A stretch of 59,111 nucleotides of DNA, counting the filler, from Jimgerdemannia flammicorona (taxonomy: Eukaryota), in NCBI GenBank assembly GCA_003990765.1. It is 3 parts of 3 records of this genome, joined end to end, with 100 filler letters (N's around TTAATTAATTAA, not from the genome) between each part and the next. Parts side by side here need not be neighbours in the genome. Positions count along the whole stretch, not along the records: positions 19,746 to 39,378 come from RBNJ01001889.1; 2 more parts are not named here. One strand, written 5' to 3'. Within the stretch, counting starts at the first letter, position 1. Each line of letters begins with the position of its first letter. Positions 8,461-45,296 of the stretch are shown here, piece after piece. Under the pieces are notes generated by a model. The model was given only the letters and a program-made list of their open reading frames with translations. It was not told the origin of the DNA and did no database searches. A program made the position numbers and the translations under genes.

Positions 8461-11400
8461 CGAAAAGAATGGCGAACCCGCGGTGACGAGGACGGGATAT
8501 GTCGTGAAGTCGGATTGGAACATGGTTGCGGAGAGGGGGTTTAGTTCTAAAGGCTGGGGGCAGAAAGGGTGTGGGGAAGGGGATATAGGTTATAATTCTT
8601 CCCACGAGCAGCCACAAAATTTTACAATGCAACCGGTCAATAAAGGGGGCGTAGATGTCGCGGCGACGAGGTGTCTGCTGTATGCAAATCTATTCATCCT
8701 TTTTGAACGGGGTTGAGCTGTACGAATTAAAAAAAGTAATGGCCCGCCATATTTATAAAGCGCCCTGGCCCGCCATGCCCTCCCGCTCCAGCGCTTGTGG
8801 GTCAGCGTCTTTATAGTGCCCGATGCCGCGACACTGTAAAGCTAAGAGGAAGACGCCAGCTTATCTCTACTAGTTTTGACCCCTGTGGCGTGCGGTTGTG
8901 GGTCAGAGGTGAGTGAACAGAAATTTCACGCCTACAGTCGAGACTGATTGGTGAACAAATGCCGTGATGTGAATCGTGATTTACGCATTTATTGATTCTG
9001 AAAGATCTATTTTAATATAGTGATATCAATAGATATATATAATACTTTATAAAAAATAAAAATAAAAATATTTATTATTTTGAGATATTTTTATAGTAGA
9101 ATGCTCGTTAATTATTAGAAACTAACACTAATTTATTCTAAAAAAAAACTCTAAATATATATCTATTTATTGTTTTAAATAAAGTTAAAATAGAAATATA
9201 TAAGTTTTTATCATAAGTATATTTTAATAAAAATAAAAAATATATTATAATTTTCTTAAAAAAAGTTTATATAAACTTTTACCTTTTTAATATAATATTA
9301 TAAATAAATTATATAATTAAAATTAATTTATAGTATTTTATATTTATAATATGTAATAATACAGTATATCTTAATTATAATATATTTTCATATTATTTTT
9401 TTAGTCTTTTTTTATTCTTTTTTAAATAGCCTATAATATTCTATATAATTTTTTTTTAAATACTTAGAAATTCTTTCTTAATACTAAGAGATTAATAGAA
9501 TATTATAAACTTATATTAGTATAATAAAACTATATACTAATAGAATTACTATATTATAAATAATTAATAGTAATTATTGACTCTAAGTTTGAAATTCTTA
9601 AGAAAGTGTTGAGTTTTAAAATTACCTATTATAGCAAGATCCAAGTATCACTTTTAGGTTCTTGTCTAGGTATAGAAGACTATGCTTATATCTCAAGTTG
9701 ATCAAACTTAGAATAATTAATAAATTAGATCTGAGGTTTTAATAAAAATACTACTTTATTTTTAAATTTAGAAAAGTAGAACTGAGGTTGCAATTTACTT
9801 AGTATAAAAAATATTTATATATTTCAAAGCTATGATCAAATATAGTATACTGGATATGTCTATATATATATATATTATTTTGAGTACTATGACTATTAGT
9901 CAGAAATTCTATAGGAAATTCTTATTGAAAATTTCAGTAGCTTATAATAATTCATTATATCCTTCCCTTCTTTACTTAAACCTACTCATTAGTTTCAGTA
10001 CTAAACTTTAAGTATTTATCAAACTAAAGGACAGTTTACTGAACTACTTAAAAGATAATTTTACTTTATTATTTATTACTCAAGTTGGTAATATTCTTAG
10101 AGAATACTCTACAGAGGTAGTCAAGAACTCAGGATTAGATGCAGAAGAGAATATAGAGTTTTTTGGCAACTATATAAGTATAGTGATTAATGAAAAGGTA
10201 GACTTATTATTTTATAGTACTGAGAGTAGCTTATTGATAGATAAAGTATTCTATCTTATAGTACTCTTTGAGTTCTTATTGATATCAGAATGTCTGGAAA
10301 TACTATATTCTTCTAAGATATTATTGGATTTTATTTGGATCTGGGTCTAGATATTTATATTGATAGATAGTAGTTTGGTAGAGTTTTATTACTCTAAGAA
10401 CTGTAGTAACAATCTTATTTTTGACTTAATCTCAGTATTATTACTAAGTACTTATATTAGAAGAAGTGGGTTATCTATATAAGATTATATCAGAATATTT
10501 ATACTTCTTTTACCAAGATTATTCAAAGATATAACTGTCTTTTGAAAATTCCATCAAAATTTCCATTATATCAAATATTTATATTAGATTACTGCCTCTT
10601 CTATATTTGGTAATAAGTAGTCTTCTTTTTCTCAAATAGTATTATATTTGAGATATTCTTTCCATTTTATAAAATAGTACTAGATAGACTAGGTAGCTCT
10701 TTTAAATTGATGATTTTTATAATCTGGAATATTCAACTTTATATTCTAGCTACTGATCAAATATTATTAGATCTGGGAGTAGTATAGTTCTTTCTTTAAG
10801 GGTGTTTGGAGTATATAGCTGAAGTTGAGATATATGAAACACTGGATAAATTCTTTCTAATATTACTAAGAGATCTAATTTATATATAACAGGTCTATAT
10901 TTTTTAAGAATCTTGAATAGTCTGATATAGTAGGGTCTACATTTCTTTTTTAGACCTATATTACTCAGAATTAGGTTCTAAGTACTGAGTAATACTTATT
11001 CTTCTATTTGTAAGTGACTTCTTTTCTATTCTTATCAGTATATATTATTTGTATTCTTTGTACTTCTATGGGAGTATCTCATACTTGCTAAATATTATCT
11101 TATATAATATCAGTAATTTCTTATACTGCTGATACTATAGTTTGAATAGTAACTATTAGAGTTTGTGGATATTATCCATAGTTCAAGTAGAATGGTATCA
11201 TTTTAGTACTTGTGCTTAGACTATTATTATAGACAAATTTGGCTAGAGTCAGCTTTTCATTCTAATCATTTTACTTATAGCTGTAGTAGATGCTGAGAAT
11301 CTATTTCAGGGTTTGATTAGTTCTTTCTATCTAGCCATCTGTTTGCAGATAGTATACTGTAGATATTTTCAGTTATATTCCTAAACTCTTGAAGAGTACT

Positions 11401-12659
11401 TACTAAAATTACTTATAAACTTTGTATCTTGATCTGAGATAATTGCTAATAGTAGTCTATAAAGACAAAATATGTTATCAATAAATAGCTGAGCTGTTTC
11501 TGATACTATTACCATAGTAGTTATTATAATAAAGTGGATCTGCTTGCTGAGGCAATTAATGCAAATAATGATTGCATCTCTTCTCTTCTTAGTTTTTGAT
11601 AACTGGACAATGAAGTCTATTCTAATATAGTTCTAATTTCAGATAAGAATTAGTAGCAATTATAGAGTACTAGCTGATACTTAATTACTGAACTTATATC
11701 TTTAACAAATATCATAAGATACAATATAGTTCTTAATATTAAATGTCATTTTGGGCCAGTAGAAGTCTTGGGCAATATATTGATATATCTTATCAAAACA
11801 TATATATCTAGTTATAAGTATATCATAAAGTTCTTGTAGGATTCATAAATAGATAGGAATGTCAGAGATCCAAATTCTTATATTGTCAAGGTACAGTATT
11901 TATTTTGAACTAATATATTCTTATAGACTTTGTTTATGATATTATTGTCTTCTTCAAGAATTTGTCTGGTGATTTCTTATATGTATATTAGTATTTTTTG
12001 ACATACTCTTTCTTGAGTTCTTTAAACAGACTGATGATAATAATGTTAATTGCTATAAGATTATCTTTTTGTGTACTTCAGGAGAGTGCATCAGCTATAT
12101 CATTCTTGGTTCTAGCAATGTACTTGATTTTGATGTCAAAGGGTATAAGAATCTATATCTATTGGGCTTATCTTTTAGTAATAATTGGCTGTATCTAGAT
12201 ATATCAGAGGCCTTGATAGTCAGTCTATATATAAGAGAGTTACTTTGTTAGAGTATTATTATATAGTTCTGAAAGGGTTTTCTGGAAGTTCTGGATATTC
12301 TGAACTATTTTCTTTAAGATTAAGATCATTTTCATATAGAGTATATCTTCTATACTTATTGATTTCAAGATTAGATTAATGTCTCAACCAAAGTCCTTTT
12401 TCAGACTTATTCTGGATGTTCAGAAAATTCTGTATTTCAGGAAGTTTAAGAAACTAAGACCAGCTTAGTTGAATTGACATATCACTGCAGATAATATCTA
12501 ATTAGGAAATTTCATAACTTGGTTAGAAGTAGGATCTAATGGGGTACAGATTTACTTAAGAGTAGTTTGTAGATTATTAAATAGATTTAATCACTATTCA
12601 TAATATTACTATATTAGGAGTAGTGTATAAAGAGATATTGTGAAAAAGTATTCAGAAGT

Positions 12660-12830
12660 TCTTATATTCAGATCTGGTACTTGTTTTGTCTAAATTTCTG
12701 AGGTCTGGGAGAGTGGGTATTTATACTAATAGGAGGCTATCTGGACTATACTAAATATGGATATAGTACTTAGTGCTTTGCTGAGTTAGAATACAATCAT
12801 ATAGTATAAGTGTGAACTGATATATCAAGA
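12660..12830 (-). repeat. LTR-like repeat, copy 1
   Basis: About 160 bp aligns by eye with 18525-18676. The minus strand has TATAAATA. Boundaries are approximate. Confidence 0.6.
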
Positions 12831-14118
12831 GATCATCTGACTAATGAGTCAATATATAGTTATATCATATAAAGTTAATTTAACTATACTAATAACTGCT
12901 AAGCTATATATAGATTTAGATTCTATCTGAATAGTCTTTGATGAGGTCACTATTAATGATATTATCTCTGATAAAGTAGTTATCTAAGAGCAGCTTTTAG
13001 ATTATATCTTCTTATTTATTTATATAGTAATAGGTTAGAACTATATCACTATTCTACAGAATAGCATTATCTGTATTATATATTGGATATAGTATTGATA
13101 TATAGAGAAGGAGTGTATCATCTTTGCTTTCATCAAATTTACTATCTGCATATCTTTAGTAAGTATATAATAGTGCTATAAGTTGCAGGGTTATAGTAAG
13201 CTAGTAACTATATTTCATTTCATTTATACTCTATTGGTTTAATCTCAAGGGTTGTCTGGAGATATAGATTATGTTCTCTGATATCTTCATTATAGTTGAA
13301 GTAATCAAATATAAATGTAGGTTAGTACTCATGCCAGTGGTCATTATCTCAATAAGTTTCATAGATAGTTATAAATTATTATAAGTTCATTAATAAGATT
13401 GATAGAGTAATCAGGGCTGGCAGAGAATCTTAACTAAAGGTCATATTATCAGAGATATCATTGTCTTCTTTTTTATCATTATCAAACTAGATTATATTAT
13501 AGATATGTATTCTTCATAGTATATCTAACTTAGGATATTTGCAGAATATGATTATCAGGATGAAAAAAGGATCTGTCTGTAGTTTGAATATACTTAATAT
13601 ACTTGTAGTTGAGTTCTTATACAATATTGTCAATTTGGCCATAAGACAGAATGGTAACCATTTCAGCAGTAGTAACTTGGAGATAGAGAATAAAGATGCT
13701 ATACTTATAAAAGAGTTCTTAGTATTTATAAGTGATGAGTTTCTGGTATTGAGATATTTAGATAATATCTCTATTATAGTAGTGTTCAACTATATCTTCT
13801 AGAAGGTAGCTAATCTAGTAGTAGCTTGAGATTTGTCCAATTCAGTAGACTTTGCTAAGTATGTTCAGGGCATTCCATTGGGCCACTATGAAGTAAAAAT
13901 GTACCAAGCTATAGATATTTATAAGAAGCAGGAGAGATGTAACTTGGTTGACAATAGTATTCCCAATGTTAGTACAGATATAGTTATAGATCTCAGTAAT
14001 CATATTTATATATATATTCAAGAATTATAGTTGTTTGTTTGATTTGTTGTAGTTCTGTATTTCAACATACCTGTGTTTTAAATATATACTTTTTGTTCTG
14101 AATGGTAAGGTTTTATTT

Positions 14119-15884: not shown

Positions 15885-16871
15885 TGGTAAGGTTTTATTT
15901 ATGTAAATCTTATATTTTGTGACTTTGAGTTGACTCAGCTTAATGCTCTGTAACTTCAGTTTGACTCAGCTTTGTGATCTTATATGTGATTTTAGTAGCT
16001 TAGAGGTTGTGCACTTATACTATAAAATGAACTTTTTGCTAAAGAGGAAATATCTCTATGCTTGTAGAGATCAGATAATAGCAAAGAGTATCTTATCTTA
16101 TATTATATAATTTCTTTTATACTCATTGAGTTTCTGAGACAGATAGATAATAGAGTATTCATATTGAGTCAGAACTGCTCTAATGGTAATGTTTGAAGCA
16201 TTAGTAGTAACTATGAAGAGTCTAATTAGGTCAGGGCTGATCAGGATTAGTATATTTTTAGTATTCTCTTGAGAGTATTCATAACTATAGTATATGCTTC
16301 TATCTATTCTCTTTCAATTTTAGCTCCTTTTTTTGGCAAGACTTGTGAGTGGGGCAGCAATTGTAGAGAATCTTTGAAAAAATCTCCTGTAATATTCTAC
16401 CAGTTTATTGAATTCTTATAAAAACTTAAGGGTTCTCAGAATGGGTCAATTGCAGATTACTTGAGTCTTCTTGGGGTTAATAGCAATACTATTTTCTGAG
16501 ATAATATGGCCTAAGTATTTAATTTTCTTCTTGAAAAAGTGATATTTCTTTCTTTTTACTAAGAGCTTATATTTGTAGAGTATGTTAAATATCATTTATA
16601 GATATTATTGATTCAAGATATTACTTGTACTGTACACCAGGATATCATCTAGATAGACTAGGATAAATACTCCAAGATATTTTCAAAAGATGTCATTCAT
16701 CAGTATTTGAATGGATACTGATGCATTTGTGAGACTAAATGATATTATACAAAATTCATAATATTCAAATCTTATTTGAAAGACTGTCTTGGGAATATCT
16801 TCTTCTTTGATATATATTAGATAATATCTAGATATATGATTGATGAGTGAGAAGGTCTTGGTCTTATATAT

Positions 16872-19645: not shown

Positions 19646-19745
19646 NNNNNNNNNNNNNNNNNNNNNNNNNNNNNNNNNNNNNNNNNNNNTTAATTAATTA
19701 ANNNNNNNNNNNNNNNNNNNNNNNNNNNNNNNNNNNNNNNNNNNN
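19646..19745. other. Assembly gap with artificial TTAATTAATTAA linker
   Basis: N-runs flank a six-frame-stop linker; same structure as 39379-39478. Confidence 0.97.
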
Positions 19746-22088
19746 GACCCAACAGTCAAAGCATTCCAACCAGGCCTCCTCCACACTCCCCATACCAGCC
19801 TACTCCCCCAATGTCCATCGTCCCCAATGTCCCCCATCCCTTTTCTAACCAGGATGCCAACCTGCCCTGTCCATATAGCTGCCCCACCCCATTCCCGAGT
19901 CCAGTCCAGTAGGTCCACATCTGGCTCATACCACACATCCTGCAATAGGAAGAGATCTGCCTCCAGACCCTTCAACCAGCTAAAAATGTTTCTATGCCGT
20001 TTTGCCCCCCTTAGCCCATTGACATTCAAAGAAAAGATTCTAGTTGTACTGTTCATATTGAATAATTTTGGTAGGGATATCACAATCTAGAACTCCATGC
20101 TCCTCCTGTCCCCCTCCATATCCATGCGTCGCTCAGCCTCCAACTCGTCCTCCATCACCTCCTGCACATCCAGTGCCTCCAAGATTTCCTGGCACTCTGC
20201 TCCATCAACTACTTCGAATTCGGTCCGATACTCCCTGCACACTACTCCCCACTTCTCCAACCCTTTCTTCGAGTTCCACAGGTAAGCTGCTCGATCATTC
20301 GCAATCACTCGAAGTTCCTCCTCTCGCTGATCATCGACTTGATACTCCACCGACTCCAGGAGCACCGCCAGAATTTCATTCCGGACCTTCATTGGCATCT
20401 TCTCACCACGCAGAATTTCCTCCCAGTGCCTATCACTCATAACCCAGAAGTCCTCACCTCCCAGCTCCTCAGCTGCCACCCCTTCCAGAGTCTTCCACAG
20501 CAACTTCTCCTCCTCCACCACTGCCTCGGCACTCTGGGCACTCCCTTCCCCCCCAACCACTGGGTCCCCCACTGCGATCCTCCTTCCCGACTCATCCCAC
20601 TCCTCCTCCAGGACATCAAGAAGCTCCTCCTCACCTCCGACTCCTCCCGGGACCCCGTATTGTGGCTGTACTTCTATGCTCATCTCAGCGTCCTCCACCC
20701 CACTGCCCTGCCCTCCTTCCCCATGGACCTCTTGGGCCACCCTTTGATCTACTCTGGGCTCCCCAGCCCAGTCACTTTCCCTCGATCCCCCTCCACTTCC
20801 TCCCTCTCCATCTTCCACCACGCCTCCTCCCAATTTCTCCAACAGCTCCCTCTGAATACGCCTCCCCTGCATCTTCTCCCAAGTTCCTCAATCCATCCTG
20901 ATCTTCTTCCCTTCTACAATTTCCACCACCATCTTGGCCTCATACTCCTTTCAAGCCAATCGTCTCCTCTCGACAGCTCCCGTCAGATCCTCAAGAGCCT
21001 CCAGCAAATTCTCCTCTTCCTCCAGTGTCCCTTTCACCTGAGAGACCCTGCACTCAGCCTGTCCCCACTTCAGCATCGCCGGCCAGTCCCTCGCCTTCCC
21101 CATGTTCTCCCGACTAAACAAGCGTACTCTTACATCAACGTCTCCAGTCCTAAGTTCTGTACCCTCCCAGACTTTGAACCCGATATCAATGACATTCCCA
21201 TACTCCTTTACCACCTCCACAATCAACTCCCTAGCCCTCTCCCATGACACCATAGGAAGATCCAGCACTGTCAACTGCACCACTCTTGGGTCCCAGTGCA
21301 TGCACCTTGCCATAGGAACTACCACTCCACCCACTACTACCCCTTTCTCCATAGCCTCCAGCATCGACACCTCTTCTTCAAACCCAACCTCAATCCCTTC
21401 CTTCCCCTTCATGAACTTGACCGTAGCTGCCCCCTTCACCTCCTGCACCACCAGCCCCAGGATCATCCTCACAGTCACTGCCAAGCCTCAGAAACACAAT
21501 GTGACCACGAATTCTGACCTCGACTTTTTGAGTAACGGTGCCGACACCATGCCTGTCACTCCATCAGCCAGGTCCCCGGGCCTCGTGCCCTCCTTCTGAC
21601 CAGATCCGCCAACCACCGTCACATCTGGATTTTTCTCCAGATTCCCCGTCACAGCCCCATCAGCAGTCACATCTCCAACCCCTACTCCCCCTCCCCCCAT
21701 ACCGACTGAGGCTCCCATGGGGGATCCTCCCTGCCCTCCTTCTGAACCCAGTATCACCTTCCCCAGTCCCAACCAACCATCCAGCCCTGCGGCCATCTTC
21801 CCCATCCTGACCTTGTTGGCAAAGGTCGCCCTCCCCCCACCTCTCTGCCTCAGTCTACCTCTCCCTCCACCTCCAGCGCCACCACCCACCACAGACAGCC
21901 CTGGAATCTCCAAACCATCTCCTCGTTTCCTCCCAACCTGCTGCCAGTCGAAGGCCCGGCTGCCCCCCTGGCCGACCTGCCCACCAGTTTGCTTGTTGCT
22001 CGCCATGTTGATAGTAGCTTTTCACCAAAAACTTCGCAGAAAGTGTTGTCCAAATCTTGTGTCACCTGAATGTTACTAGTGAAAGGTG
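19746..22088 (-). mobile_element. L1-like LINE (copy 2): 5' UTR, ORF1 (22006-20087, ~639 codons, two nonsense changes) and start of the ORF2 APE endonuclease (ATG 20056)
   Basis: Three track ORFs lie in one frame, broken by TGA codons. ORF2 reads IFSLNVNGL...ADLFLLQD. The 5' end CACCTTTC is at 22088. Confidence 0.92.
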
Positions 22089-23849
22089 CTGACCAGAATT
22101 CGATATCAGATAATCCTTGCAGATTATGCTGCTGCTATCCGAGATCAAGTAGCTGAAGCAACCTTCATGAAAGGAGTCCATCCAGAAAAAGCCATGGCCA
22201 TCTGCTCATCACCAGTAATTCTGGATCTACCACAGAAGGTCACCTATGCTCAGCAATACTAGATAGCCAGACATCCACAAGACCATACAATGGAAAGGGT
22301 CACAGGAGTCAGAATCGAGGCACCCAAGGCAACTAGTGTGATCCCTACCACAATGATCAATCGAAATACACCTCAGCCAAAAGTTACAGAGCAGCAAAAG
22401 AACAGTGACCCTATGGAGGAACTTGCCAAAAGGTTTGCCAAAATGACTGCCCACCTGGGAGATGTAGTAAAGGAAATTTGAGAAAGAGACCGCCACTCTG
22501 TCCAGAAGTTCGCCACCACCTCAGACAAGAAGAAAGGCACCTGCTATACTTGTGGAGAAGAAGGCCACTACTCTTATGAATGCATGAGCAAAACCAAGCA
22601 CAAGGCTCAACCAAAGCAATGCTATATGAAACAAAGAGCAGGCCAATATAATTACCTTTGAGGAGATTGGAGATTCTGATGAAGAAGAATGGGAGGCCTA
22701 TCCTGCTCAGACCACCAAGAAGAATGCTTGCAAAGTGCCCTACAAGAGACCACCAGGAAGACCCAAGAAGAACCCAGTGGAAAAGCAGATGGAAACTGCC
22801 ACAGAAAGCCAAGCTGAAGAGATGGACCAAGATATAGAGCTGGAGCAAGCAGTTCAAGATATCATCCGAGGAACCACTCCAGCCAGTGAAGGAGAAAAAG
22901 AAAAGAAGCTTTGCAAGACCAAGACCTTCAAGTATGATATCTTCAAGGACCTCAGCGAACAAAAGGTCAATGCAACCTTTGGTCAGCTTGCAGAAATCCC
23001 AACATTCAGACAGCAAATGAGGTTTGGACTTGCTGAAACAACTAAGAAACAGGGATGGAAGATAACTGAGGCCAATAATATTCAAGAGGACTCAGGAGAA
23101 GAAAGTGAGGACAATCACAAAACCTCTGCATATGCAACATGCCAAATTGAAGATAGAATCTTTGAGGCCATCATTGATACAGGAGCAGGAGGATATCTCC
23201 TCAGCAAGAAGGCAGCAGACTGCCTAGGTTGGGATGTGGAAGAAGCAACTAAGCTAGTGTTCATCACAGCCGATGGCACAAGAGCCACACCTCTGGGAAA
23301 GATCCAAGACATTCCCATCAAGATTGGAGGAGCAACCATCTCAGTAAATGTAATTGTAACCAACACCACCAACTATGACATCCTCATTGGCAATCAATGG
23401 CTTCACAAAGCCAAGGCAGTAATCGATCTCAATGCCCAGAAGATACAGATCACCTACCAGGGACAGAAGATACAAATTCCCATCAATGTTAACAAAGGAG
23501 TCCTGCTCGACATGGAGGAAGAAGAGAGCAAACAAGAGGAAGCTTATATGGTGACTACTCCAAAGAAGAAGAAAGTTGGATGGATGAGTGAAGAAGAATG
23601 GTGCAAGAAGATGGCAAAAGGCTATGCACCACAAGGAGTCTGTCCTCATGGAATCAGGATGTACTATATGGAGCATATCAATGATTGCTACCAGTACACC
23701 ATCAGAATCAGGAAGATCCACCAGGAAAGAAGGCAGAAAGCTCTCAAAAAGCAGATCAGAGAAGAAGAGAAGGAGGAAGATGATGAACCACCAGCTCTCC
23801 TGGAGGACAGTGATGATGAAAAAGAAATCAAGGTCACCCTGATGCAGTC

Positions 23850-24227
23850 TTGCCAGAATACAAGTCAGAAAATGCAGCTGGAATGGACATCACTACAGTA
23901 GAAGAGACTATACTAGAACCCCAGACAACCACCCTACTTGCAACCAGATTGGAGATGACCATCCCAAAGGATCATGTCGGGATTCTCAAGACAAGAAGCA
24001 GCCTGGCTAGAAGCAAAATTACAATTGAAGGAGGAGTCATTGATTCAGACTACACTGGAGAAATTCTACTCATTGCTAGGAATCACAATCCTACAATCCC
24101 ATTTCCAGTCAAGAAGAAGGACCAATTGGCGCAAATGTTGATCTTTCTGATCCTACAACCAAAGATCATAGAAGTTAAGAAGCTGGAGGAAATAAGAAGA
24201 GGAAAGAAAGGATTTGGATCCACAGGA
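23850..24227 (+). CDS. Trimeric dUTPase domain within the retrotransposon pol, in frame with RT
   Basis: All five motifs are present: AGMD, RSSL, GVIDSDYTGEI, LAQ, RGKKGFGSTG. Confidence 0.95.
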
Positions 24228-26922
24228 AGAGGAGTATTTGCCAACATCAAGATCACTGAACTTGAGCATAAGAAGGAGGAAAACACAAGCAAGCACAGCT
24301 ACACCATCAGAAATGAATTTCCACTCAAGAAAGAACTCAAGAAAATACTCCATGAATTTGAAGATGTCCTTGCCACAGATTTCAAGGATATCAAAGGAAA
24401 GACCCCACACTACTATCATGAAGTAGATACTGGAGACACTGAACCAATTTATCAGAAGGCAAGACCTGTCCTGCCAGCCTACCAAGAATGGCTCAGAGAA
24501 GAAATCAAGCAGATGGAAGAAGCTGGCATCATTAAAGAAGCCAGTAGCCCCTGGTCCTCACCTGTTATACTAGCCTCAAAAAAAGGAAGTAAGCCTGGAG
24601 AATTCGCCCCAAGACTCTGTATCAACTACAGAAAACTCAACATGGTTACCAAGAAGGATTGCCAACCACTGCCCCTCATCAATGACATCCTTATAATACT
24701 GGGAGACAAAGCACAATACTACAGCACCTTGGACTTATACTCAGAATTCCACCAAATCGGACTCACAGATATGGCAAGTGAAAAGTCAGCTTTCATCACT
24801 CCAGATAGAACCTATATCTACCTACGAATGCCATTTGGAATGTGCAATGCACCAGCAAGTTTCCAGTGAATGATGAATAAAATCTTCCACTATGACATGG
24901 GAAGATGGATAATGGTCTACATCAATGATGTAATCATCTACAGCAAGACACCTGAGGAATATCTGCAGCACATACAGCAGATAATGGAGAGACTAAGACA
25001 ACATGGCCTTTACATCAAACCCAAGAAGTGCAAGTTCGCAGAAATCGAGATCTCCTATCTTGGCCACATCATCAACCGAGATGGAACATATACAGACCCC
25101 CTCAAGATACAAGCAGTGGCAGCATACCCAAGACCCACCACTGTTATGGAAGCCCAAGCCTTCATGGGACTCACCTCCTATTATCGCAGATTTATTAGAG
25201 AATTTTCTAATATTGCAGGACCAATCTACAAACTTAACAAGAAGGATACCAAGTTTCAGTAGACTGGCAAACAACAAAAAGCATTTGATGAACTCAAGGT
25301 CAGACTGACCCAGGTATCTATCCTCAGAAGACCTGACTGGACTCTAGAATTCATCCTATAGACTGATGCAAGTGCACAAGGACTAGGAGCAGTCTTAGCT
25401 CAAAAGAAAGATAAAGTGGAGTATGTCATTGCATACCTCAGCCGCAGAACCCGAGGAGCTGAAAAAGAATATGAATCCTACAAGTTAGAATGCCTTGCAG
25501 TCATCTAGACCATAGAAAAGTTCCACTACTACTTGGCTGGAAGATACTTCACCATCCAAACAGACCACTCAGCTCTCACCTGACTACTGGCAACTGGACA
25601 ACCCAAAGGAATCTATGCCAGATGGATAATGAAGTTGCAAACTTATGATGTAACTATCATACACCACTCTGGAAGAACCAATGCTAATACCGACACCCTC
25701 TCACGGACACCCTGAAAGACCCCACCCCAACAAAATCATCATGAATAAGAAGCTCTACTACAGAATTATCACATACCTGAGACAGTGAAAGATGCCCCAA
25801 ATCTGGAAGAATGGACACAAACGATTATCAACAGAACATGGAAACAATTCGAAACTGATGGAGAAACACTGAAGAAAGGAAAACTACTAGTCATACCAGA
25901 ACATAAGAAGGAACAAGCAATGAAATCAGTACACAAACTTGGCCATCTAGGAGGAACAAATACATACAACAAGACAAGAAGAACAATATGGTGGCCAGGG
26001 ATGGAGGAAGATATCAGACAATTTGTCAAGACCTGTGACAAATGCCAGAAACAGAAACAAGATCAATGAAATCAAGCCTCAGGATCAGCACACATAGAAT
26101 CAGTACCATTTGCCCACATTGCAATGGATGTAATTAGCCCTCTACCCTTGACTTTGACTGGCAACTGATACATCATCGTTATTGTAGACCTTTTTACAAA
26201 ATGGATAGAAGCAGGACCCCTTATAGAAGCCAATGCACAGTCAATTGCTGATTTCTTCCACAAGGAAATCATCTGCCAGTTCAAAACTCCAACACAAGTA
26301 ACTACAGATAGAGGAATAGAATTTGTGAATCAGTTCTTCGAAGTTCTCTACAAGAAGTACAAGATCCAGCATATTTGGACTACAGCATATCACTCTCAAG
26401 GAAATGGACAAGTAGAAAGGACCAAAAAAACCCTCAAGAATGTTATTGCCAAGATAGGCGATAACTACGAGAACTGGGATCACTATCTACCAATAGCATT
26501 ATCTGCCCTCTGAGATATCCGATCACAAAGTACCCACTTTACCCCTCGAGAAATGCTGTTCGGAGAAGAATGTTCTCAGGGAACCCTGTCATCCAATGGA
26601 GATGCTGTATGGAAACATGTGGACATGGAAATATAGAGACTACACCAAATCAGAAAGAAGGCTGAGGATTACATAATGAAGGCACAGACACTACAATGGA
26701 GAAATGTGGAAAAGACCCACAAACCCTTGGAGATTATCAAGATAGGAGACAAAGTCCTGGTGTATCGGAATATGGTTGAAGCTTCATGGTCATGAAAACT
26801 GGAGCCCAAGTGGAAAGGACCTTACCTTGTGCAAGATATAAAAGAAACCACCTTTTGGCTACGAAAACCCTCAGGCACAATAATCCCCACCACCATTCAT
26901 CGAAACTGACTCAAGAAATATT

Positions 26923-27382
26923 ATGGCCAGTAACACAAGTACTATGATGGCACTCAAGATCACTAGTGCTGCCCAAAGGGCCATTAAGAGACAATGGTGC
27001 ACCACCAAGCCCCTGACCATAGAGGAGTCTTATGACAGTATCCAAAGTATCGTGCAGACTCATCTCTCTTGGATCTCACACTTCAAGGCCTATTAGCATT
27101 GGAATGAATTCCAAGAGTACTTCAAACTTGGCCAAGTACTCAACCAAGACCCAGAAATGACCAAAGAATTGAATCACAGAATGCCAGCTCTCCTATTCCC
27201 AGATCACCATTGTCAAAAGAATCCACAAGCTATTCCGAGAGGATGAATCAGCACTAGCCCACCTGCGAGGAGTGACTCCCTCAGACTTCGACCAAGTCAG
27301 GCAATACCAGTGGAAAACAGTGATACAACAAATCATGCAATATAAGACCATATAGACCATTGAAGCTTGGAAGTTTGAATAG
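26923..27382 (+). pseudogene. Extra ORF (ORF3, ~150 codons) between integrase and PPT
   Basis: ATG at 26923 overlaps the end of the integrase frame (TAA 26931-26933). Codon style matches pol. Two TAGs revert by single transitions, and one frameshift lies near 27190. Confidence 0.6.
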
Positions 27383-27419
27383 ATGCTTTAGAGACGAGAT
27401 CATCTATTCAGGAGGAAGT

Positions 27420-27886
27420 TGTGATGGTATAGCCAGATTCGGAAGAAGGAAATAGGGAATAGATACTTGATCGCACCCAGTCCCAAAGTAGTATAGCCAC
27501 ATAGTTAACAGTCCTCGATTTCGCAACTTGCTAAATATTTTGCAAAGTGCAAGATCGAGCTCTCTGATATAGTATAGTATTTCGCAACTGGCGAAACATT
27601 TTGCAAAGTGTTAAATGACTCATAACTTAGCCATGTAACTCAGTAACCATCTCATAGTTAGCAAACTTGTATAAATAACCCAGTATCTTTAAGTGAATAA
27701 ACCTCAGATCGAAATAGTTCAAAGCAAAGAGATAGTAAAGGAACTAGTAAGCCTGTGGGCAGATATACCTCAAACTCACCCACCCTCTCCTGCAACTTCA
27801 AGAGACTCTGTGAGAGTCAGAACAGTCAAGTTTTCAAGATACAGAAATCCGATGTACTTTCAAGAGTAAGTGTCCACTATATTACA
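27420..27886 (+). repeat. 3' LTR (467 bp) of the dUTPase gypsy element
   Basis: Termini TGTGAT...ATTACA follow the PPT. TATAAATA and AATAAA at ~27670-27700. The hAT sequence resumes immediately after. Confidence 0.85.
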
Positions 27887-30800
27887 ATATATATCCAAAT
27901 TGTCACTGCATTTAGCATATACCTCTTAGTGGTAATAAGATTTATCTAATCAGAGAATATCTGTTTGACAGAAGTATTGGTGGCAGGAATTACCATATAG
28001 TCTCAAGCCATACCATATAGGCTGGAGAAGTCTATTTGATGTAGCTGCAGCCATATACCCCAGTGAGTAGAGTGGTGGTTAGAACAGTAGTTAGGTTAGT
28101 AAATTAAATTGGCCCAACACAACCAATCACCTATCTGAAAACTCACCTTTCACCAATTGAGCACCTCTATGCCCTCCAGCAGGATCATACAGTCACTGAT
28201 AAGATAAATAGTGAGTTTATTTATTGACAGTAGCTCTTCTACTAATTGCTCTCTCTTTCTCTTTCTGCTGAAGTAAATGTGGGACAGGAGGGATCTCTCA
28301 GTATATTCATCCAGACTTCAGCTAGAATCTTGCAGCAGTATATAGTTTTTCTGATATGTTTTAATTATAGCCCACTTAGTTCCCTCAATATAGTAATGCT
28401 CTCAGCTCTTATCTTTACAGTATTGTAGCTTTAAGTATAGGTCCAGCACTGTTTGGAGAAAGAGAGTGAGTTTTGTGGGAGTTTCTCTGTTTTGGAAGAG
28501 ACAATGGCCATATATTGATATACCTATACTGATTGAGTATATGGCAGCATCTGTTTTGAAGTAGTATTTTCTGAGCTTACTTAGAGCAACCTCCACAGTA
28601 TCTCTCTGATCTGAGCATAACTATAAATCACCACTACTCTCTAGTCTATCCTCAAGCTTATCCTCTAGCCAGTTAATCAAAAAGTTGTATACTGGTATTG
28701 TAGAACTTATTGTCAGAGTCATTTATTTGACTATATTCTTTATACAATCATCAAAATACTGTCAGTTATATATGGGAGGTAAAATATTATACAGAGGTAG
28801 ACAAAATAAGTTTAGGGTTAGAGTAATCATTACTTACTTCCGAAAATCTAATAACATTCCTAAGTATATGTCACTCACTTTCATCTGTAGCCTTACTCTA
28901 TATTACCTTGTCAATAGCAACCATTGAATCTATTGGCCTATTTTGTTGTTTTTTTTTTTTTTTAAAAAAAAAAGAAACTTCAATTATCTGAAAGAAGTTG
29001 CTTCAGCCAATTGAAAAAAAGAATGCATACCACAGCAAACTCCAACACATGCTGGATCATTGCAAATATTGAGTTCCAATATATACAGATATCCAATATC
29101 TGTTCTTTTGGGGCTAAACTGATTGCCCTACACTATATAGTAAATTTGTCTCATTGTTGTAGAGATGCAGACCAACATAATCAGTTTGTACAGCTTGGAA
29201 ACTATACTCAGAGCCTCTCCTCTCTCAGATGTTTGGTCTATGTGCATAAGATAGTTCTGAATAGTGAGGTTCAGTATGTGTGCCTGGTATTATATATGGT
29301 AGCTTTCTATATAGAAGACCAAATTTTTCTATTTTGAGGCTGTCTATTATAACTTAGAAAATATTGAGTTGTTTGTAACATTATCTATCATAATGGCCAA
29401 AATCTGTACTTGAAATATTTGGTCAGCAAATTTATATGAAAATAAATAACCAATAAAATCTGTTTTGTTTTTAAACCTCTCTCAAAATACCAATCTGATG
29501 GCAAGCCCCCCTTTTTTATCTTGGTTGTGATACCAAGCTCTCAGATATAACTAATAAAAGCATCTGCAATATTTTCTCCAGAATGAGGGTTAGCAAGTTT
29601 GATGAAGTCAAGAATGAGAGATTTAAGCTGCCAATCAAAGTTAATTCAATTACTAGTAATGCCCAGAAATGAAATTATATTGAGGGATGTCCATGTGTTG
29701 ATTATAAATGAAATTTTGCCTATTAAATTCTGCTTATTGAATATGTATAAGATTAAATTGGTGAGCTCTTTTATAAATATATATATATATATAATTCAGC
29801 TTGCACCTTTCACCAGTAACATTCAGGTGACACAAGACTCAGACAACACTTTTTATAATGTTTTAGGTGTCTGATGACTAACAACACGGATGGCAATAAT
29901 CAAACTGGTGAGCATACTGGCCAGGGGGGTAACAGCATCTTTGGCTGGCAACAGGTGGGGAGGAGGGGAGATGGTTTAGGGATGCCAGGGGCCTCGATGA
30001 CAAGCCGAGGCCCTGGTGGTAGAGGGAGGGGCAGTCTGAGGCAGAGAGGTGGGGAGAGGTTGATCTTTGCTGACAAGATCAGAATGGGGAAGATGGCCTC
30101 TGGTCTAGATAATTGGCTGGGCCTAGGGAAGGCATCAACAGCTGCTGCTGGGGGACTGGGAGGTGTGCCCAGGGGAGCTTCTGATGGTAGGGAAGGAGCA
30201 GGAGTAGGGGCTGGAGATATGACTATTGATGGGGCTATGACTGGGGATCTGGCAAAAAATCCAGATGTGACAGTAGTTGGCAATTCAGGACAAGGGGTGG
30301 GCACAAGGCATAGGGACCTGGCAGATGGGGTGACTGGAATAGTGTTGGCCCCATTACTCAAGAAGTCAAGGTCAGAATTCGCAGTCACAATGTGTTTCCG
30401 GGGCTTGGCAGTAATGACAAGGATGATCTTGGGGCTGGTGGTACAGGAGGCAAAGGGAGCAGCATTGGTGAAGTTCTTAAAGGGGAAGGAAGGGTTTGAG
30501 GTGGGGTTCAAGGAGAAAGATGCCCTGCTGGCAGCCTTGGAGAAAGAGGTGACAGTTGGTGGAGTTGTGGTCCCCATGATCAGGTGTATGTACTGGAACC
30601 CTTGGGTGGTACAGTTGACAGTGTTGGATCTCCCTATGGTGTCGAAGGAGAGGATCAGAGAGTTGGTTGTGGAGGTGATCAAGGAGTATGGATAGATTGT
30701 GGACATTGGGTTCAAGGTATGGGAGGGTACCAAGCTCTAGACTGGTGATGTCGATGTCAGAGTGAGGCTGACTGGAAAGGAGAATATAGAGAAGTCGAGG

Positions 30801-33800
30801 GACTGGCCAGTGATGTTGAGGTGGGGACTAGTGGAGTGCAAGATCACATGGGTGAAGGGGACCCAGGAGGAGGAGGAAGATCTGCTGGAGGCTCTGGAGG
30901 ATCTGGAAGAGGCAGTTGCAAGGAGGAGATTGGCTTGGAAGGAGTTTGAGACCAGAATGGTGGTGGGAGAGGTGGATGGAAAGAGGGTCTGGATGGAGAG
31001 GGGGGCCTGGGAGAAGATGCAGGGGAGGAAAATCCAGAAGGAGTTGTTGGCAAAGTTGGGTGGGGGTAGAGCTGGCAGGAGCTCAGGGGAGAGGGATGCA
31101 GGATTGCAGGAGAGTGCCTGGGCTATGAGGGGCAAGAGGGCCCAGAGTGGGGCTTGGAGTGGATTGGAGGAGGTGAGAAAGGCAATATGGTGGCAGATAC
31201 AGATATGAGCGAAGATGTATGCCCTCAGTATAGTGTCCCAGGTGGTGTAGAGGGGGAGGAGGAGCTGCTGGATGTGCCAGATGAGGAGTGGGATGAGTCA
31301 GTGAGGAGGAGTGCTCTGGTGGACCCTGAGGTGGATGGGGGGCAAATCATCCAGAGTATGGCAGTGGCAGTGGATGAGGAGAAGTGGATGTGGAAGAATC
31401 TGGAAGGAGTAGCGGCAGAGGAGCTAGGGGGAGAGGATTTCAGAGTTATGGAAGAGAGATATTGAGAGGAGATCCTATGGGGGGAGGAGGTGCCCTGGCT
31501 GTTCTCCTGGAGTCAGTTGAGTATCAAGTCGATGATCAGAGAGAAGAGGAACTTAGGAAGATGGCGAGTGACTGGGCTTTATACTTGTGGAACTCAAGGA
31601 AGGGACTGGAGAAGTGGCATGCAGTCTGCCTGAACTACCAGTCAGAGATGGAGATAGTGGACAGGGTGGAATGTCAGGAAATCTTAGAGGTGCTGGATGC
31701 TCAGGCTAATGCCGAGAGTGATTTGGAAGCCGAACAGAACTTGGATCTGGCTGGGGATGAGATGAGCATGGAATACTAGACTGAGATCTCTATTGCAATA
31801 TTTCTTCAATATGAACCGTACAACTAAGATATTCTCTTTGAACATAAATGGGTTATGGGGAGTGGCTAGGTGGAAGTATATATTGGGATGGCTTAAGAGA
31901 CTGGATACAGACCTATTCTTGTTGCAGGATATTCGTTATGAGGCAGATGTAGATTTATAGGATTAGACTAAGGAATGGGGGGGGGTGGCAGTATGGAGGG
32001 GGAAAGTGGGTATTCTTGTTTGGAAAGGGATGGGGGACATTGGGGACATTGGACACTGGGGGTCTAGGGTGGTGTGGGGGGTGTAGAAGAGGCCTGGATG
32101 GGGCTCATTGACAGTTGGGTCTTGTTACTGCCCGGCTGAGAGAGGGGAGAGGGTAGATTGGATTCACAGATTGAAAGAAACTGGTGTCTTAGGTGAAGTT
32201 GGGTTGGACTGTCTGGGGGGTGATTTCAACATGGTGTGGAATAAGGAGATGAATAGGTCAGATGGAGGGAGGGGCATGCAGGGTGAGAGTGGTGGGCTAG
32301 GTGACTGGTTGGAGACAGAGAGGTTGAGCTTGTTAGTGGACTCTGAAAGACAGTTTTGGAACAATAGACAGGTGTATACCCACTGAGCAGCAGGGCTGGG
32401 CTCTAGGATTGGCTGGGTTTTGACAGCAAATTGTTGGGGGGCCGATGTCTGGGTGATACTGGAGGTAGTTTGATGTCTATGGATTGATCACTGGGGGCTA
32501 TTAGGTGGGGGGAGGTTTGGGGGAAGTGAGGAGGGGCCTGGACATTAGTGACTAAATTCTTCCTTATTGGAGGATAGAGCTTTGTGGAAGGGTTGAGAAG
32601 TGGAGATTATTGAGAATATTGGTAGGTGGCAGGAATGGGGCCTAGGGATTGGGGACTGCTGGAGGAGACTGAAGGCGAATGCTCAAGGGTATTGGAGGGA
32701 AGCTGGGAAAGGAAGAGGTGCTCAGTGATGGCAGTGGGTGCTGTGGGCCTCACAGTGTCTGGCAGCACTTATGGGGAGATGGGCAGATGTGCTAGAAGAT
32801 GGGAGGTGATGGATTGGCGTATTGTGAGAATCTGAAAGAAGGTGGAGGAGCTTAGAGGAGTGCTATGTAGTGAGGAGGAGGTAAGACTGCAGGGGATGGT
32901 GGTCTGGCTGTAGTGGCAGGGGCTTGAGGAGGGGGAGAGGCCTACTAGATTTCTGTTACAGTTATTACAAGCAAGATGAACAAAGCAGCAGTGGGAGGGG
33001 GTTCTAGATGCGAATGGTGAGCTGGTGGTGGGGACTCAGGCAATTTTGAGTTTACTGAGAATTTATTGGGAGAATCTATGGAGTAAGGAGGAAGGAGGAG
33101 TAGATGCCTTGGATATTGAATGGCAGCTGGAGGATTGGCACCTGAACCCTGCAATGGGTCTGGGGGATTTGGGGGACCCAGTGAGTGGAGAGGAAATCTG
33201 TAAGGTTGTGGTCTCAATGAGTAAGGGGATAGCTCTGAGGGAGGATGGACTTCCCTGGGATTTTTGGAAGAAGATGGCTGGAGTGGGCGAGGTGCTGGAG
33301 GAAATAACTGCTATGTGTGATGAGGTTCTTCGGTCTGGTACTTGGATTGGGAGACAGTGTCTAGGGCTAGTCTCTTTACTCTACAAGAATAAGGGGAGGT
33401 GGGAAGATTGGAGGAACTAGCATCCGATCATGCTACTTGACATGGACCGCAAACTGGTGATGAAGATCTTAGTGATGAGGTTGCAAGGGATCACTCAGCA
33501 AGTGCTTGGTGTGGAGCAGCATGGGTTTGTAGGTGGTCGGTTGATTCGTGATGGGACAGCTTGGGTCCATGGAGTGATTGAGGGTACCCGGGCTATAGGG
33601 GTGGATAGCCAGTTGGTATTTTTGAATCAGGAGAAGGCATATGATAGGGTGCAGAGGATCTGGCTAGAAGGAGTGCTGAAATGGATCAGTATTCCCCTGG
33701 GGTTCCAAGGGTCGCTGGTCAGCCTCTTGGAGGACAGTTAGGCTGCATTGGTCATCAATGGCCATAGGGGGGTGACCTTTCCCCTGAGTCATGGGGTGCC

Positions 33801-39378: not shown

Positions 39379-39478
39379 NNNNNNNNNNNNNNNNNNNNNN
39401 NNNNNNNNNNNNNNNNNNNNNNTTAATTAATTAANNNNNNNNNNNNNNNNNNNNNNNNNNNNNNNNNNNNNNNNNNNN
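39379..39478. other. Assembly gap with artificial TTAATTAATTAA linker
   Basis: N-runs with the linker. Confidence 0.97.
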
Positions 39479-43935: not shown

Positions 43936-45296
43936 TGTAACGTGCCTGACTCAATGGAGGAAAATTACAAGGTTGGGGGTTGATGTAGTTTGGCTTGAGC
44001 CCCCAGTTACTTTGTCAAAAAGCAACAAAATATTCTAAGATTCCTGAGGTCCTTGTTGGTGTTTAGTGGTATAATAGTCAAAACTGGATATCTGCGAGCA
44101 ATTTCCTTATTGGGATGGTTCTCTGGGTGTAGCAGCAATTTGTGTGTGAATGGGTTTCCTTCTTGGGTCAACTGGGAATTGGTAGAAATTCGTGTGTAGC
44201 ATGATGATCTTCTTTATGCGTAACAGTCTGGCAATTTGGTGGTTCTCCTTATGCGATTTCTGCATGACGATCTCTGTATAGCGTGAGTGGATTCCTTATG
44301 TAGTACGATCTGGTAATCTGGCAGATAACTCAATTTGGCATGGATAATTTGAATAACTGGGAATAATGCTGATGGCAGATTCTTCTGTATTGGGCTCACT
44401 GGGAACAAACAACTCAGACGTCGTGGAAACTTGGATGGCACGAATCGGGTTCTTCTGGGAATAATAACTCAGGTGGTGTGGGTTCTTCTGGGAATGCAGA
44501 TAACTTGAAAACAGTGGATGACACAGGTTCTCCTGAATCAGCGGACTTCTTGAAAACAGCAGCTTCAACTGGGAAATAACTTGGATTCTTGGCAAGTTAC
44601 ATCTAGACTGGTTTTGTTTGTATGAATGGATCACTGCAAAGTTGCATCAAGAGACTGGCTTGTGGCAAGAAAGGTGGGCTCTCTGGGAATGCGGCAAATA
44701 ACTTGGAAATGGCAGCGAAGTTCTTCCTTGAACTTGGCGGCAAACTTCAGGCTTAGTCTGGCAAGCGTACCAATAGCGCGGCTTATTCCTTAAGTGGCAG
44801 GTTCTTCAGGCTTAGTCTGGCAAGCATACCAATAATTCCAAAGGCAGCGAAGTTCTTCCTCAAACTTGGCAGCAAATCTTCAAGCTTTGTATCAGAAAGT
44901 GGACCAGAGTGGGAATAAGGGGACAAATGCTCAATCTTTAGAGGCTTCTTTGGTTTGCACTTCAATTTGGACTGAGGTTTATTCACTCTTATCTCTGGGG
45001 TAATTTATACATTGTGGTTGCTATCTGGTTACTATGTGGCTAACTATAGATCTGCTACTTATGACAGATATACAGAGTCTGTACAGTGTACAGGACCTGT
45101 ACAGTGTACAGAGTCTGTATGGGTAAACAGACCCTTTCTGGTATGTCTGGCTAATTATAAGTGTGGTGGGCATGAGTAACTATGATACACTGGAAGTTAT
45201 GTCATGCTGGGAGCCTATGTCATCTGGTTAAGTATGCTAATTGTTCACGTCATCTGGCTAAGTTATAATTCGGGTGGTACATTTTGGTTTGTTACA
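43936..45296 (-). mobile_element. Solo LTR (~1.36 kb), younger copy
   Basis: Termini TGTAAC...GTTACA with 4-bp TSD ATAT. Minus-strand TATAAA...GTGAATAAACCTCAG is shared with the 27420-27886 LTR. Many CpGs retained. Confidence 0.92.

What the first reader, a model, noticed from the sequence alone, without database searches (positions are those of the whole stretch)
26923..27382. Unknown third ORF in the env position of the dUTPase gypsy
Seen: ATG at 26923 overlaps the integrase end. Correcting two TAGs and one frameshift gives ~150 aa: MASNTSTMMALKI...FQEYFKLGQVL...ITIVKRIHKLFREDESALAHLRGVTPSDF...WKTVIQQI. It ends about 30 bp before the PPT and has no signal peptide, TM segment or chromodomain. 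Inference: a translationally coupled soluble accessory protein, possibly for targeting or anti-silencing. The R-I-x-K-L-F helix recalls uncharacterised proteins of arbuscular mycorrhizal fungi (from memory, unverified).
Basis: partly seen in the sequence, partly recalled or inferred. Interest (0 to 1): 0.7.

Follow-up and report, generated by a model that had tools for sequence, protein, structure and literature searches.

The report
Third gene travelling with retrotransposon enhancer
A dead jumping gene in this probably fungal genome carries a real extra gene of an unnamed protein family that is inherited together with a matching set of short repeats in the element's own promoter, which suggests, but does not show, that the protein regulates its own element.

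Summary
Window 26923-27382 is a decayed copy (two premature TAGs, one private 2-nt deletion) of a 153-codon gene between integrase and PPT in a high-copy dUTPase Ty3/gypsy family. All 29 sister copies keep the frame. Between subfamilies it is under purifying selection (transversion-only ratio 0.11-0.22). It belongs to an unnamed helical family with three clades: this one, a metagenomic clade with an acidic tail in the same position, and one in a chromodomain-bearing gypsy, also in this window. No Pfam, PHROG, PDB or fold match; the link to mycorrhizal (AMF) proteins is unconfirmed. ORF3 and the U3 enhancer travel as one cassette on shared pol/R-U5 backbones (distance correlation 0.86 against 0.13-0.30). 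Each of five ORF3 types has its own U3 repeat array, and codon 125 is the most type-specific residue. Best reading (0.45): a subfamily-specific LTR-binding regulator. Simple linkage explains the cassette as well, and no binding, dimer or expression is shown. The scan noted this gene and the arrays before on other pieces of this genome.

The parts
26923..27382 (+). ORF3, 153 codons in sister copies; decayed here (premature TAGs at 27094 and 27353, private 2-nt deletion near 27166)
25741..26933 (+). Integrase as a separate, broken ORF; its ATG overlaps the RNase H stop (25746-25748) and its stop overlaps the ORF3 start
   Evidence: Pfam Integrase_H2C2 and rve on an open sister copy
22094..25748 (+). 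gag remnant, protease (ORF 22630-23901), dUTPase (about 23847-24227), RT, RNase H; 5' LTR and about 440 nt of the internal start are missing
   Evidence: comparison with full-length copy L080
27410..27418 (+). Polypurine tract
   Evidence: sequence; same position in sister copies
27420..27886 (+). 3' LTR (467 bp)
   Evidence: matches both LTRs of L080
27518..27614 (+). U3 array, type A: two 32-nt direct repeats holding four imperfect 15-nt palindromes (27520, 27539, 27581, 27600)
   Evidence: D6; 7 palindromic words, shuffle mean 1.9, p 0.007
27666..27681 (+). TATA-box-like motif shared by all subfamilies and by clade II; preceded by a TGACTCA word at 27616
   Evidence: function inferred
10039..10329 (-). 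Remote homologue of ORF3 (clade III) in a second, heavily decayed chromodomain-bearing gypsy element; probably inside its U3
   Evidence: E 3.9e-5; profile-profile probability 98%
19746..22089 (-). LINE-like element abutting and probably truncating the 5' end of the gypsy copy
   Evidence: ORF text and inverted repeat to 29803-31860; identity judged by eye, not scanned

Best explanation
ORF3 is an element-encoded regulator of the element's own LTR. SHOWN: it is a selected protein-coding gene; it is exchanged together with the U3 enhancer as one cassette; each ORF3 type comes with its own array of short, partly palindromic U3 repeats just upstream of a shared TATA-like box. INFERRED: the protein is made from the genomic RNA by stop-restart after integrase (or from a spliced RNA), enters the nucleus, and binds the cognate U3 array through the short C-terminal helices (residues about 116-135, with 121-129 setting specificity). 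It then keeps the LTR transcribed against the host's cytosine-directed silencing; in clade II the acidic aromatic tail would be an activation domain. New ORF3/array pairs would found new subfamilies on the same pol backbone. The sign (activator or anti-silencer versus repressor) is not determined; activator is my guess.
For: Selection: net pN/pS between subfamilies 0.14-0.30 in 10 of 10 pairs against 0.87-2.13 in four other frames; transversions at 0-fold/4-fold sites 0.11-0.22, interval below 1 in 6 of 7 pairs; no shared indel in ORF3 among 95 copies whereas the LTR has many of all phases. Cassette: divergence between types B and D jumps from about 1-2% to 11-18% transversions at the ORF3 ATG and falls after the TATA-like box; in 24 copies distances correlate ORF3-U3 0.86 and IN-R/U5 0.75, cross pairs 0.13-0.30. 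Pairing: markers at codons 125-128 are discordant with U3 type in 0 of 128 A/B/C copies, while integrase and R/U5 markers are not tied to it; codon 125 is the most type-differentiated of 153 codons (R, K, H, Y, Q; 9 of 10 type pairs differ); three A-to-B/C chimeras break inside ORF3 upstream of codon 125 and keep the array of their C-terminal part. Clades II and III are also followed by a repeat array and a similar TATA-like motif. Clade II tail: 11-12 D/E, 0 K/R and 7-9 W/F/Y/L in the last 30 residues. Decay is C-to-T, CpG far above CpA and CpC, as expected of methylated copies (inference). Precedents: VANC (PMC5735166) and foamy-virus Tas (PMC517496).
Against: One template switch near the integrase/ORF3 junction moves everything 3' of it, so linkage alone predicts the cassette. 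Only three informative crossovers were seen; the chance that all fall 5' of codon 125 is about 0.16 (my estimate from the table). Codons 76, 59 and 78 are nearly as type-specific (0.86-0.90 against 0.94). Palindrome excess was significant in only 3 of 11 arrays, and not in clade II. ORF3 and U3 trees still reject each other in the AU test. U3-restricted subfamily variation occurs in fungal elements with no such gene mentioned in the abstract (crapaud, PMC10787394). No known DNA-binding fold or family was matched. Clade I, the window's own, lacks the acidic tail and is not basic (pI 5.7-6.8). An earlier follow-up (e1-7507788) read the arrays as ordinary host-factor sites.
Confidence: 0.45

Rival explanations
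1. ORF3 acts on the element's RNA or particle (RNA export, packaging, nuclear entry, chaperone for integrase). The U3 arrays are host transcription-factor sites and travel with ORF3 only because they are adjacent on the RNA.
For: Linkage predicts the cassette; IN and R/U5 travel together for the same reason (0.75). Coupling to integrase suggests a fixed ratio to it. An accessory protein for RNA export is known in C. elegans Cer1 (PMC10309623, search listing only). A conserved TGACTCA word suggests host factors act on this U3 (AP-1 likeness recalled).
Against: A partner of integrase or Gag should travel with pol, yet types B and D share integrase (4-fold transversions 0.005) while ORF3 differs by 0.40. 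In clade III the gene appears to lie inside the LTR.
Confidence: 0.27
2. ORF3 is a general antagonist of host defence (RNA silencing or methylation machinery) acting by protein contact, not through the LTR sequence; its alleles turn over in an arms race.
For: Heavy C-to-T decay of copies; several divergent alleles on one backbone; shared by distant gypsy families.
Against: Divergence is mostly synonymous (ratio 0.11-0.22), with no sign of positive selection overall; it does not account for a distinct array beside each type.
Confidence: 0.14
3. ORF3 is an integration-targeting factor that replaces the chromodomain missing from this integrase.
For: No Chromo domain in this integrase; position and possible coupling right after integrase.
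Against: A homologue lies in a family whose integrase has a chromodomain (Pfam Chromo over the cut-off in 2 of 3 sister copies); ORF3 is freely exchanged among identical integrases. Insertion sites were not analysed.
Confidence: 0.08
4. ORF3 is an env-like or cell-to-cell movement protein.
For: Position and sense orientation only.
Against: 153-169 residues, no hydrophobic segment, 1-2 cysteines; no match among viral structures.
Confidence: 0.03
5. The frame is a non-coding stretch that looks open by chance.
For: Most copies are broken (type A: 1 of 50 fully open); within-group pN/pS is also low (0.14-0.60) because decay is transition-rich.
Against: Transversion-only test, frame-specific signal, and homologues at 20-30% identity in the same position.
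Confidence: 0.01

Closest known systems
Sense additional ORFs between pol and the 3' LTR of LTR retrotransposons (review PMC7264820, text read through the conclusion; bdelloid ORF3s PMC5408684, search listing only)
   Same: Family-wide extra sense ORF after integrase, conserved in most copies, without a cellular homologue found.
   Different: No transmembrane segment; start overlaps the integrase stop; no family match; exchanged with U3 as a cassette; homologue apparently inside the LTR of another family.
VANC anti-silencing proteins of Arabidopsis VANDAL DNA transposons (PMC5735166, abstract and section 9 read)
   Same: Element-encoded extra protein; short motifs in fast-changing repeats that differ between subfamilies; methylated host background.
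   Different: VANDALs are DNA transposons; VANC carries DUF1985/DUF287, absent here; binding and demethylation are shown for VANC, not for ORF3.
Foamy-virus Bel1/Tas (PMC517496, abstract and passages read)
   Same: Gene near the 3' LTR proposed to bind the element's own promoter; C-terminal acidic region (clade II only).
   Different: No sequence or fold likeness found; no env; no internal promoter tested; clade I has no acidic tail.
Subfamily-specific U3 variation in fungal LTR elements, e.g. Podospora crapaud (PMC10787394, abstract and outline)
   Same: Subfamilies differ mainly in the 5' half of the LTR on a related internal region.
   Different: Here a coding gene changes along with U3; the abstract names no such gene for crapaud.
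CERV of C. elegans Cer1 (PMC10309623, search listing only)
   Same: Extra protein of an LTR retrotransposon with a role in the element's own cycle.
   Different: Homology not tested; CERV acts in RNA export by its title.

Membership tests
Ty3/gypsy LTR retrotransposon | PR-RT-RH-IN order, PPT and LTRs | tested here: met
   Pfam protease, dUTPase, RVT_1, rve and Integrase_H2C2; RNase H by eye; both LTRs in L080
Additional ORF (sense, 3') of LTR retrotransposons | [quoted passage not shown] | tested here: met
   29 of 29 copies; 29 of 29 integrase-anchored copies
Additional ORF (sense, 3') of LTR retrotransposons | Coding-type conservation | tested here: met
env / env-like | Transmembrane segment | tested here: not met
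   highest hydropathy 0.17-0.76 in 8 proteins
env / env-like | Signal peptide | tested here: inconclusive
   no hydrophobic N-terminus by hydropathy; no predictor available
env / env-like | Spliced subgenomic RNA | not testable with these tools
   no reads could be laid; a YAG 50 nt upstream lies in integrase coding sequence and is uninformative
Chromovirus targeting module | Chromo domain at the integrase C-terminus or in ORF3 | tested here: not met
   met by the second element's family
VANC | DUF1985/DUF287 domains | tested here: not met
   no such Pfam hit at E up to 1 in 34 members
VANC-like or Tas-like function | Element-specific motif repeats paired with the protein type | tested here: inconclusive
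   pairing seen but linkage not excluded
VANC-like or Tas-like function | Direct, specific DNA binding and activation or demethylation | not testable with these tools
   needs bench assays
Tas-like | C-terminal acidic region | tested here: inconclusive
   present in clade II, absent in clade I
DUF3102 / DUF1016_N helical domains | Profile-profile similarity | tested here: not met
   probability 0.04 and 0.46, not above block shuffles; at most 0.61 per clade; small target alignments of 9 and 18 rows
Any solved fold | Structural match | tested here: inconclusive
   model pLDDT 63, best Z 3.5
Uncharacterised AMF proteins with an R-I-x-x-L-F helix | Sequence homology | tested here: inconclusive
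   no named hit; none among longer proteins (weak by the tool's own note); the resemblance is recalled and comes from no call

The most novel reading that the evidence does not exclude
A clade of fungal Ty3/gypsy elements encodes its own sequence-specific LTR-binding activator or anti-silencer. Protein and operator array form an interchangeable cassette, specificity is switched by a few residues around position 125, and the same gene has spread into the LTR of a chromovirus: a complex-retrovirus or VANC-like strategy in plain retrotransposons, and a natural set of orthogonal protein-operator pairs.
Probability: 0.35. Interest if true: 0.82.

Novelty: new variant of a known kind. Interest (0 to 1): 0.57.

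Why it matters
Most extra ORFs of LTR retrotransposons have no known function (PMC7264820). Here five natural protein types come with five candidate target arrays and natural chimeras, so a cognate versus non-cognate binding matrix can decide the question directly. If it holds, it shows how a retrotransposon can keep itself active in a methylating genome and explains why U3 and subfamily identity change together. If not, it is still an unnamed, selected protein family shared by distant gypsy lineages.

Tried and rejected
Family searches: Pfam on the open copy (best E 0.079) and on 34 members (best 0.01, scattered); PHROGs best 0.002 to an unnamed family in 3 of 34; PDB sequences best 0.16. ESM Atlas: only unnamed or low-overlap look-alikes for P0002, nothing for P0032. 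Folds: clade I model pLDDT 50, clade II model pLDDT 63, pTM 0.59, a long helix 35-76 plus helices 88-108, 116-120, 124-134; no match in PDB, BFVD or the wide search. Weak rows for DUF3102 and the VirB core led me to a profile test against DUF3102 and DUF1016_N, which failed. Homodimer prediction: no answer, score 0.00, alignment not used, no evidence either way. Expression: no RNA holder listed and no reads were laid, so expression is untested. Viral contigs: no relative, no motif match; six motif matches in prokaryote genomes, within chance by my estimate and not examined. Longer fused forms: none at E up to 1; P0074 joins integrase and a clade II protein and looks like a frameshift artefact. 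Plain pN/pS was not trusted alone because decay gives low ratios too, hence, whose script stopped with an error after the tables used here. Marker +559, between codon 125 and the array, is A-like in 5 of 77 B/C copies; exchange and ancestral state cannot be told apart, so it is not counted. Rows dropped: 6 of 95 copies (L002, L055, L056, L062, L066, L103); 9 of 167 without the TATA motif in reach; L092 and L096, mis-typed, removed; L125 mis-typed and outside the 128. Literature: 8 searches showed no report of this family; the library lacks most subscription journals, and Repbase or GyDB entries and supplements were not seen.

Full report
The element. Window 22094-27886 is a 5'-truncated Ty3/gypsy copy with protease, dUTPase, RT, RNase H (by eye), integrase, ORF3, PPT and a 467-bp 3' LTR. 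Sister copy L080 is full length; its LTRs differ at 34 of 468 sites, 32 of them transitions. The genome is 231 Mb and holds about 2,800 first-look candidates for ORF3, of which 150 were scored.

The observation. ATG 26923 overlaps the integrase stop by 11 nt. The window copy has premature TAGs at 27094 and 27353 and a 2-nt deletion found in no other of 95 unique copies. All 29 other copies from the first search read 153 codons then TAG. A younger type B is often intact (40 of 77 open, a sample biased by ORF3 searches; type A 1 of 50). In an integrase-anchored search 29 of 29 copies carry ORF3 and 4 have private frame-breaking indels, so random-phase indels occur, but only as decay of single copies. 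No indel in ORF3 is shared between copies, whereas LTR indels of all lengths are shared by up to 30 (copies were chosen by ORF3 similarity).

Selection. All statistics are pairwise on natural copies (89 of 95 grouped). Net pN/pS between subfamilies is 0.14-0.30 in the ORF3 frame, 0.87-2.13 in four other frames and 0.36-0.39 in the in-register antisense frame. Because decay is almost all C-to-T (CpG 0.66, CpA 0.15, CpC 0.11, CpT 0.04; 3% transversions in type A), within-group ratios are also low, so I repeated the test on transversions: 0.11-0.22, interval below 1 in 6 of 7 pairs.

The family. A profile search gave 29 proteins, 13 of clade I and 16 of clade II, all unnamed or hypothetical. Clade II (165-169 residues when complete, 20-32% identity over the core) adds an acidic aromatic tail. 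Its one available contig has the same layout: integrase end, overlapping ATG, ORF, LTR with a roughly 21-nt repeat array and the same TATA-like motif; P0074 also joins integrase to a clade II protein. Clade III lies in this window at 10329-10039 on the minus strand (E 3.9e-5), in a heavily decayed family with over 1,100 candidates whose integrase has a chromodomain (2 of 3 sister copies over the Pfam cut-off, the window copy no hit). In L233 similarity starts right after the integrase end, which fits a gene inside U3 (partly tested). Profile-profile probabilities: I-II 97-98%, I-III 98%, II-III 41%. No family or fold match was found. The model is all-helical with moderate confidence.

The cassette. 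Types B and D have nearly the same integrase tail (4-fold transversions 0.005) and very different ORF3 (0.40); B and C show the reverse (0.154 and 0.073). Divergence rises at the ORF3 ATG and falls after the TATA-like box. In 24 copies coded to hide deamination, distances correlate ORF3-U3 0.86 and IN-R/U5 0.75, others 0.13-0.30; every partition rejects the other trees by AU, ORF3 and U3 least strongly. Between conserved borders each type has its own array of short repeats, palindromic beyond shuffles in 3 of 11 arrays tested. Among 128 A/B/C copies markers at codons 125-128 never disagree with array type. Codon 125 is R, K, H, Y or Q by type and ranks first of 153. Three chimeras switch from A to B/C inside ORF3 upstream of codon 125 and carry the B/C array.

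What this does not show. On the RNA, ORF3 and U3 are the last two parts, so one template switch moves both. Three crossovers are too few to show a deficit between codon 125 and the array (about 0.16). Other codons are almost as type-specific, clade I lacks an acidic tail, and no DNA-binding fold was recognised. An earlier follow-up (e1-7507788) favoured host-factor sites plus linkage; I reached the array idea, before seeing it, and my tests neither confirm nor remove its reading.

Expression route. Integrase is itself a separate ORF whose ATG overlaps the RNase H stop (67 of 98 long copies), as earlier notes said. ORF3 keeps ATG in 151 of 163 copies; the integrase stop follows at +9 to +11 in 131 of 163, two codons later in types D2-D4, and about 17 codons later in L126. 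Stop-restart translation is therefore plausible, a spliced RNA is not excluded, and no expression data were obtained.

Comparison. By membership this is a sense additional ORF of a Ty3/gypsy element (PMC7264820, text read through the conclusion). It is not env-like, not a chromodomain and not a VANC by domain content. It may work like VANC (PMC5735166, abstract and section 9) or foamy-virus Tas (PMC517496, abstract and passages). U3-limited subfamily variation is known in fungi (PMC10787394, abstract and outline). Eight paper searches showed no report of this family; repeat databases and supplements were not seen.

Verdict. Real selected gene 0.97; cognate LTR-binding regulator 0.45; RNA or particle role with hitchhiking U3 0.27; general anti-defence 0.14; targeting 0.08; env-like 0.03. 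New variant of a known kind, already noted several times by this scan on other pieces of the same genome. Interest 0.57; 0.82 if the protein-operator cassette is true.

Noticed in passing
window 25741-25748: Integrase starts at its own ATG overlapping the RNase H stop, so integrase is a separate ORF; seen in 67 of 98 long copies.
   Followed up: partly
window about 9500-13500, minus strand: Second gypsy element, extremely AT-rich through decay, with chromodomain-type integrase end and a clade III ORF3 homologue; family of over 1,100 candidates, all 150 listed matches broken.
   Followed up: partly
L226 plus strand near its start; L235 plus strand: Fragments of a possible fourth clade of the ORF3 family (E 1e-4 and 0.01 in a small search).
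   Followed up: no
window 23820-23901: dUTPase-RT frame overlaps the end of the gag-protease frame, suggesting a frameshift between protease and dUTPase rather than between gag and protease.
   Followed up: no
all family copies: C-to-T decay also hits CpA and CpC, not only CpG: non-CpG methylation or a RIP-like process in this host.
   Followed up: partly
window 19746-22089 (-) and 29803-31860 (+): Two related LINE-like copies in inverted orientation, about 75% alike, flanking the gypsy copy.
   Followed up: no
window 44947-45011; 16323-16703: A short match to this LTR around the TATA-like motif (E 3.6e-6) and a distant RT fragment, both on the minus strand.
   Followed up: no
window 19646-19745 and 39379-39478: N-flanked spacers: the window joins three contigs; the element lies on G000:C1889.
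   Followed up: yes
L080:2117-2137: Primer-binding-site-like word beginning TGG a few bases after the 5' LTR; the tRNA was not identified.
   Followed up: no
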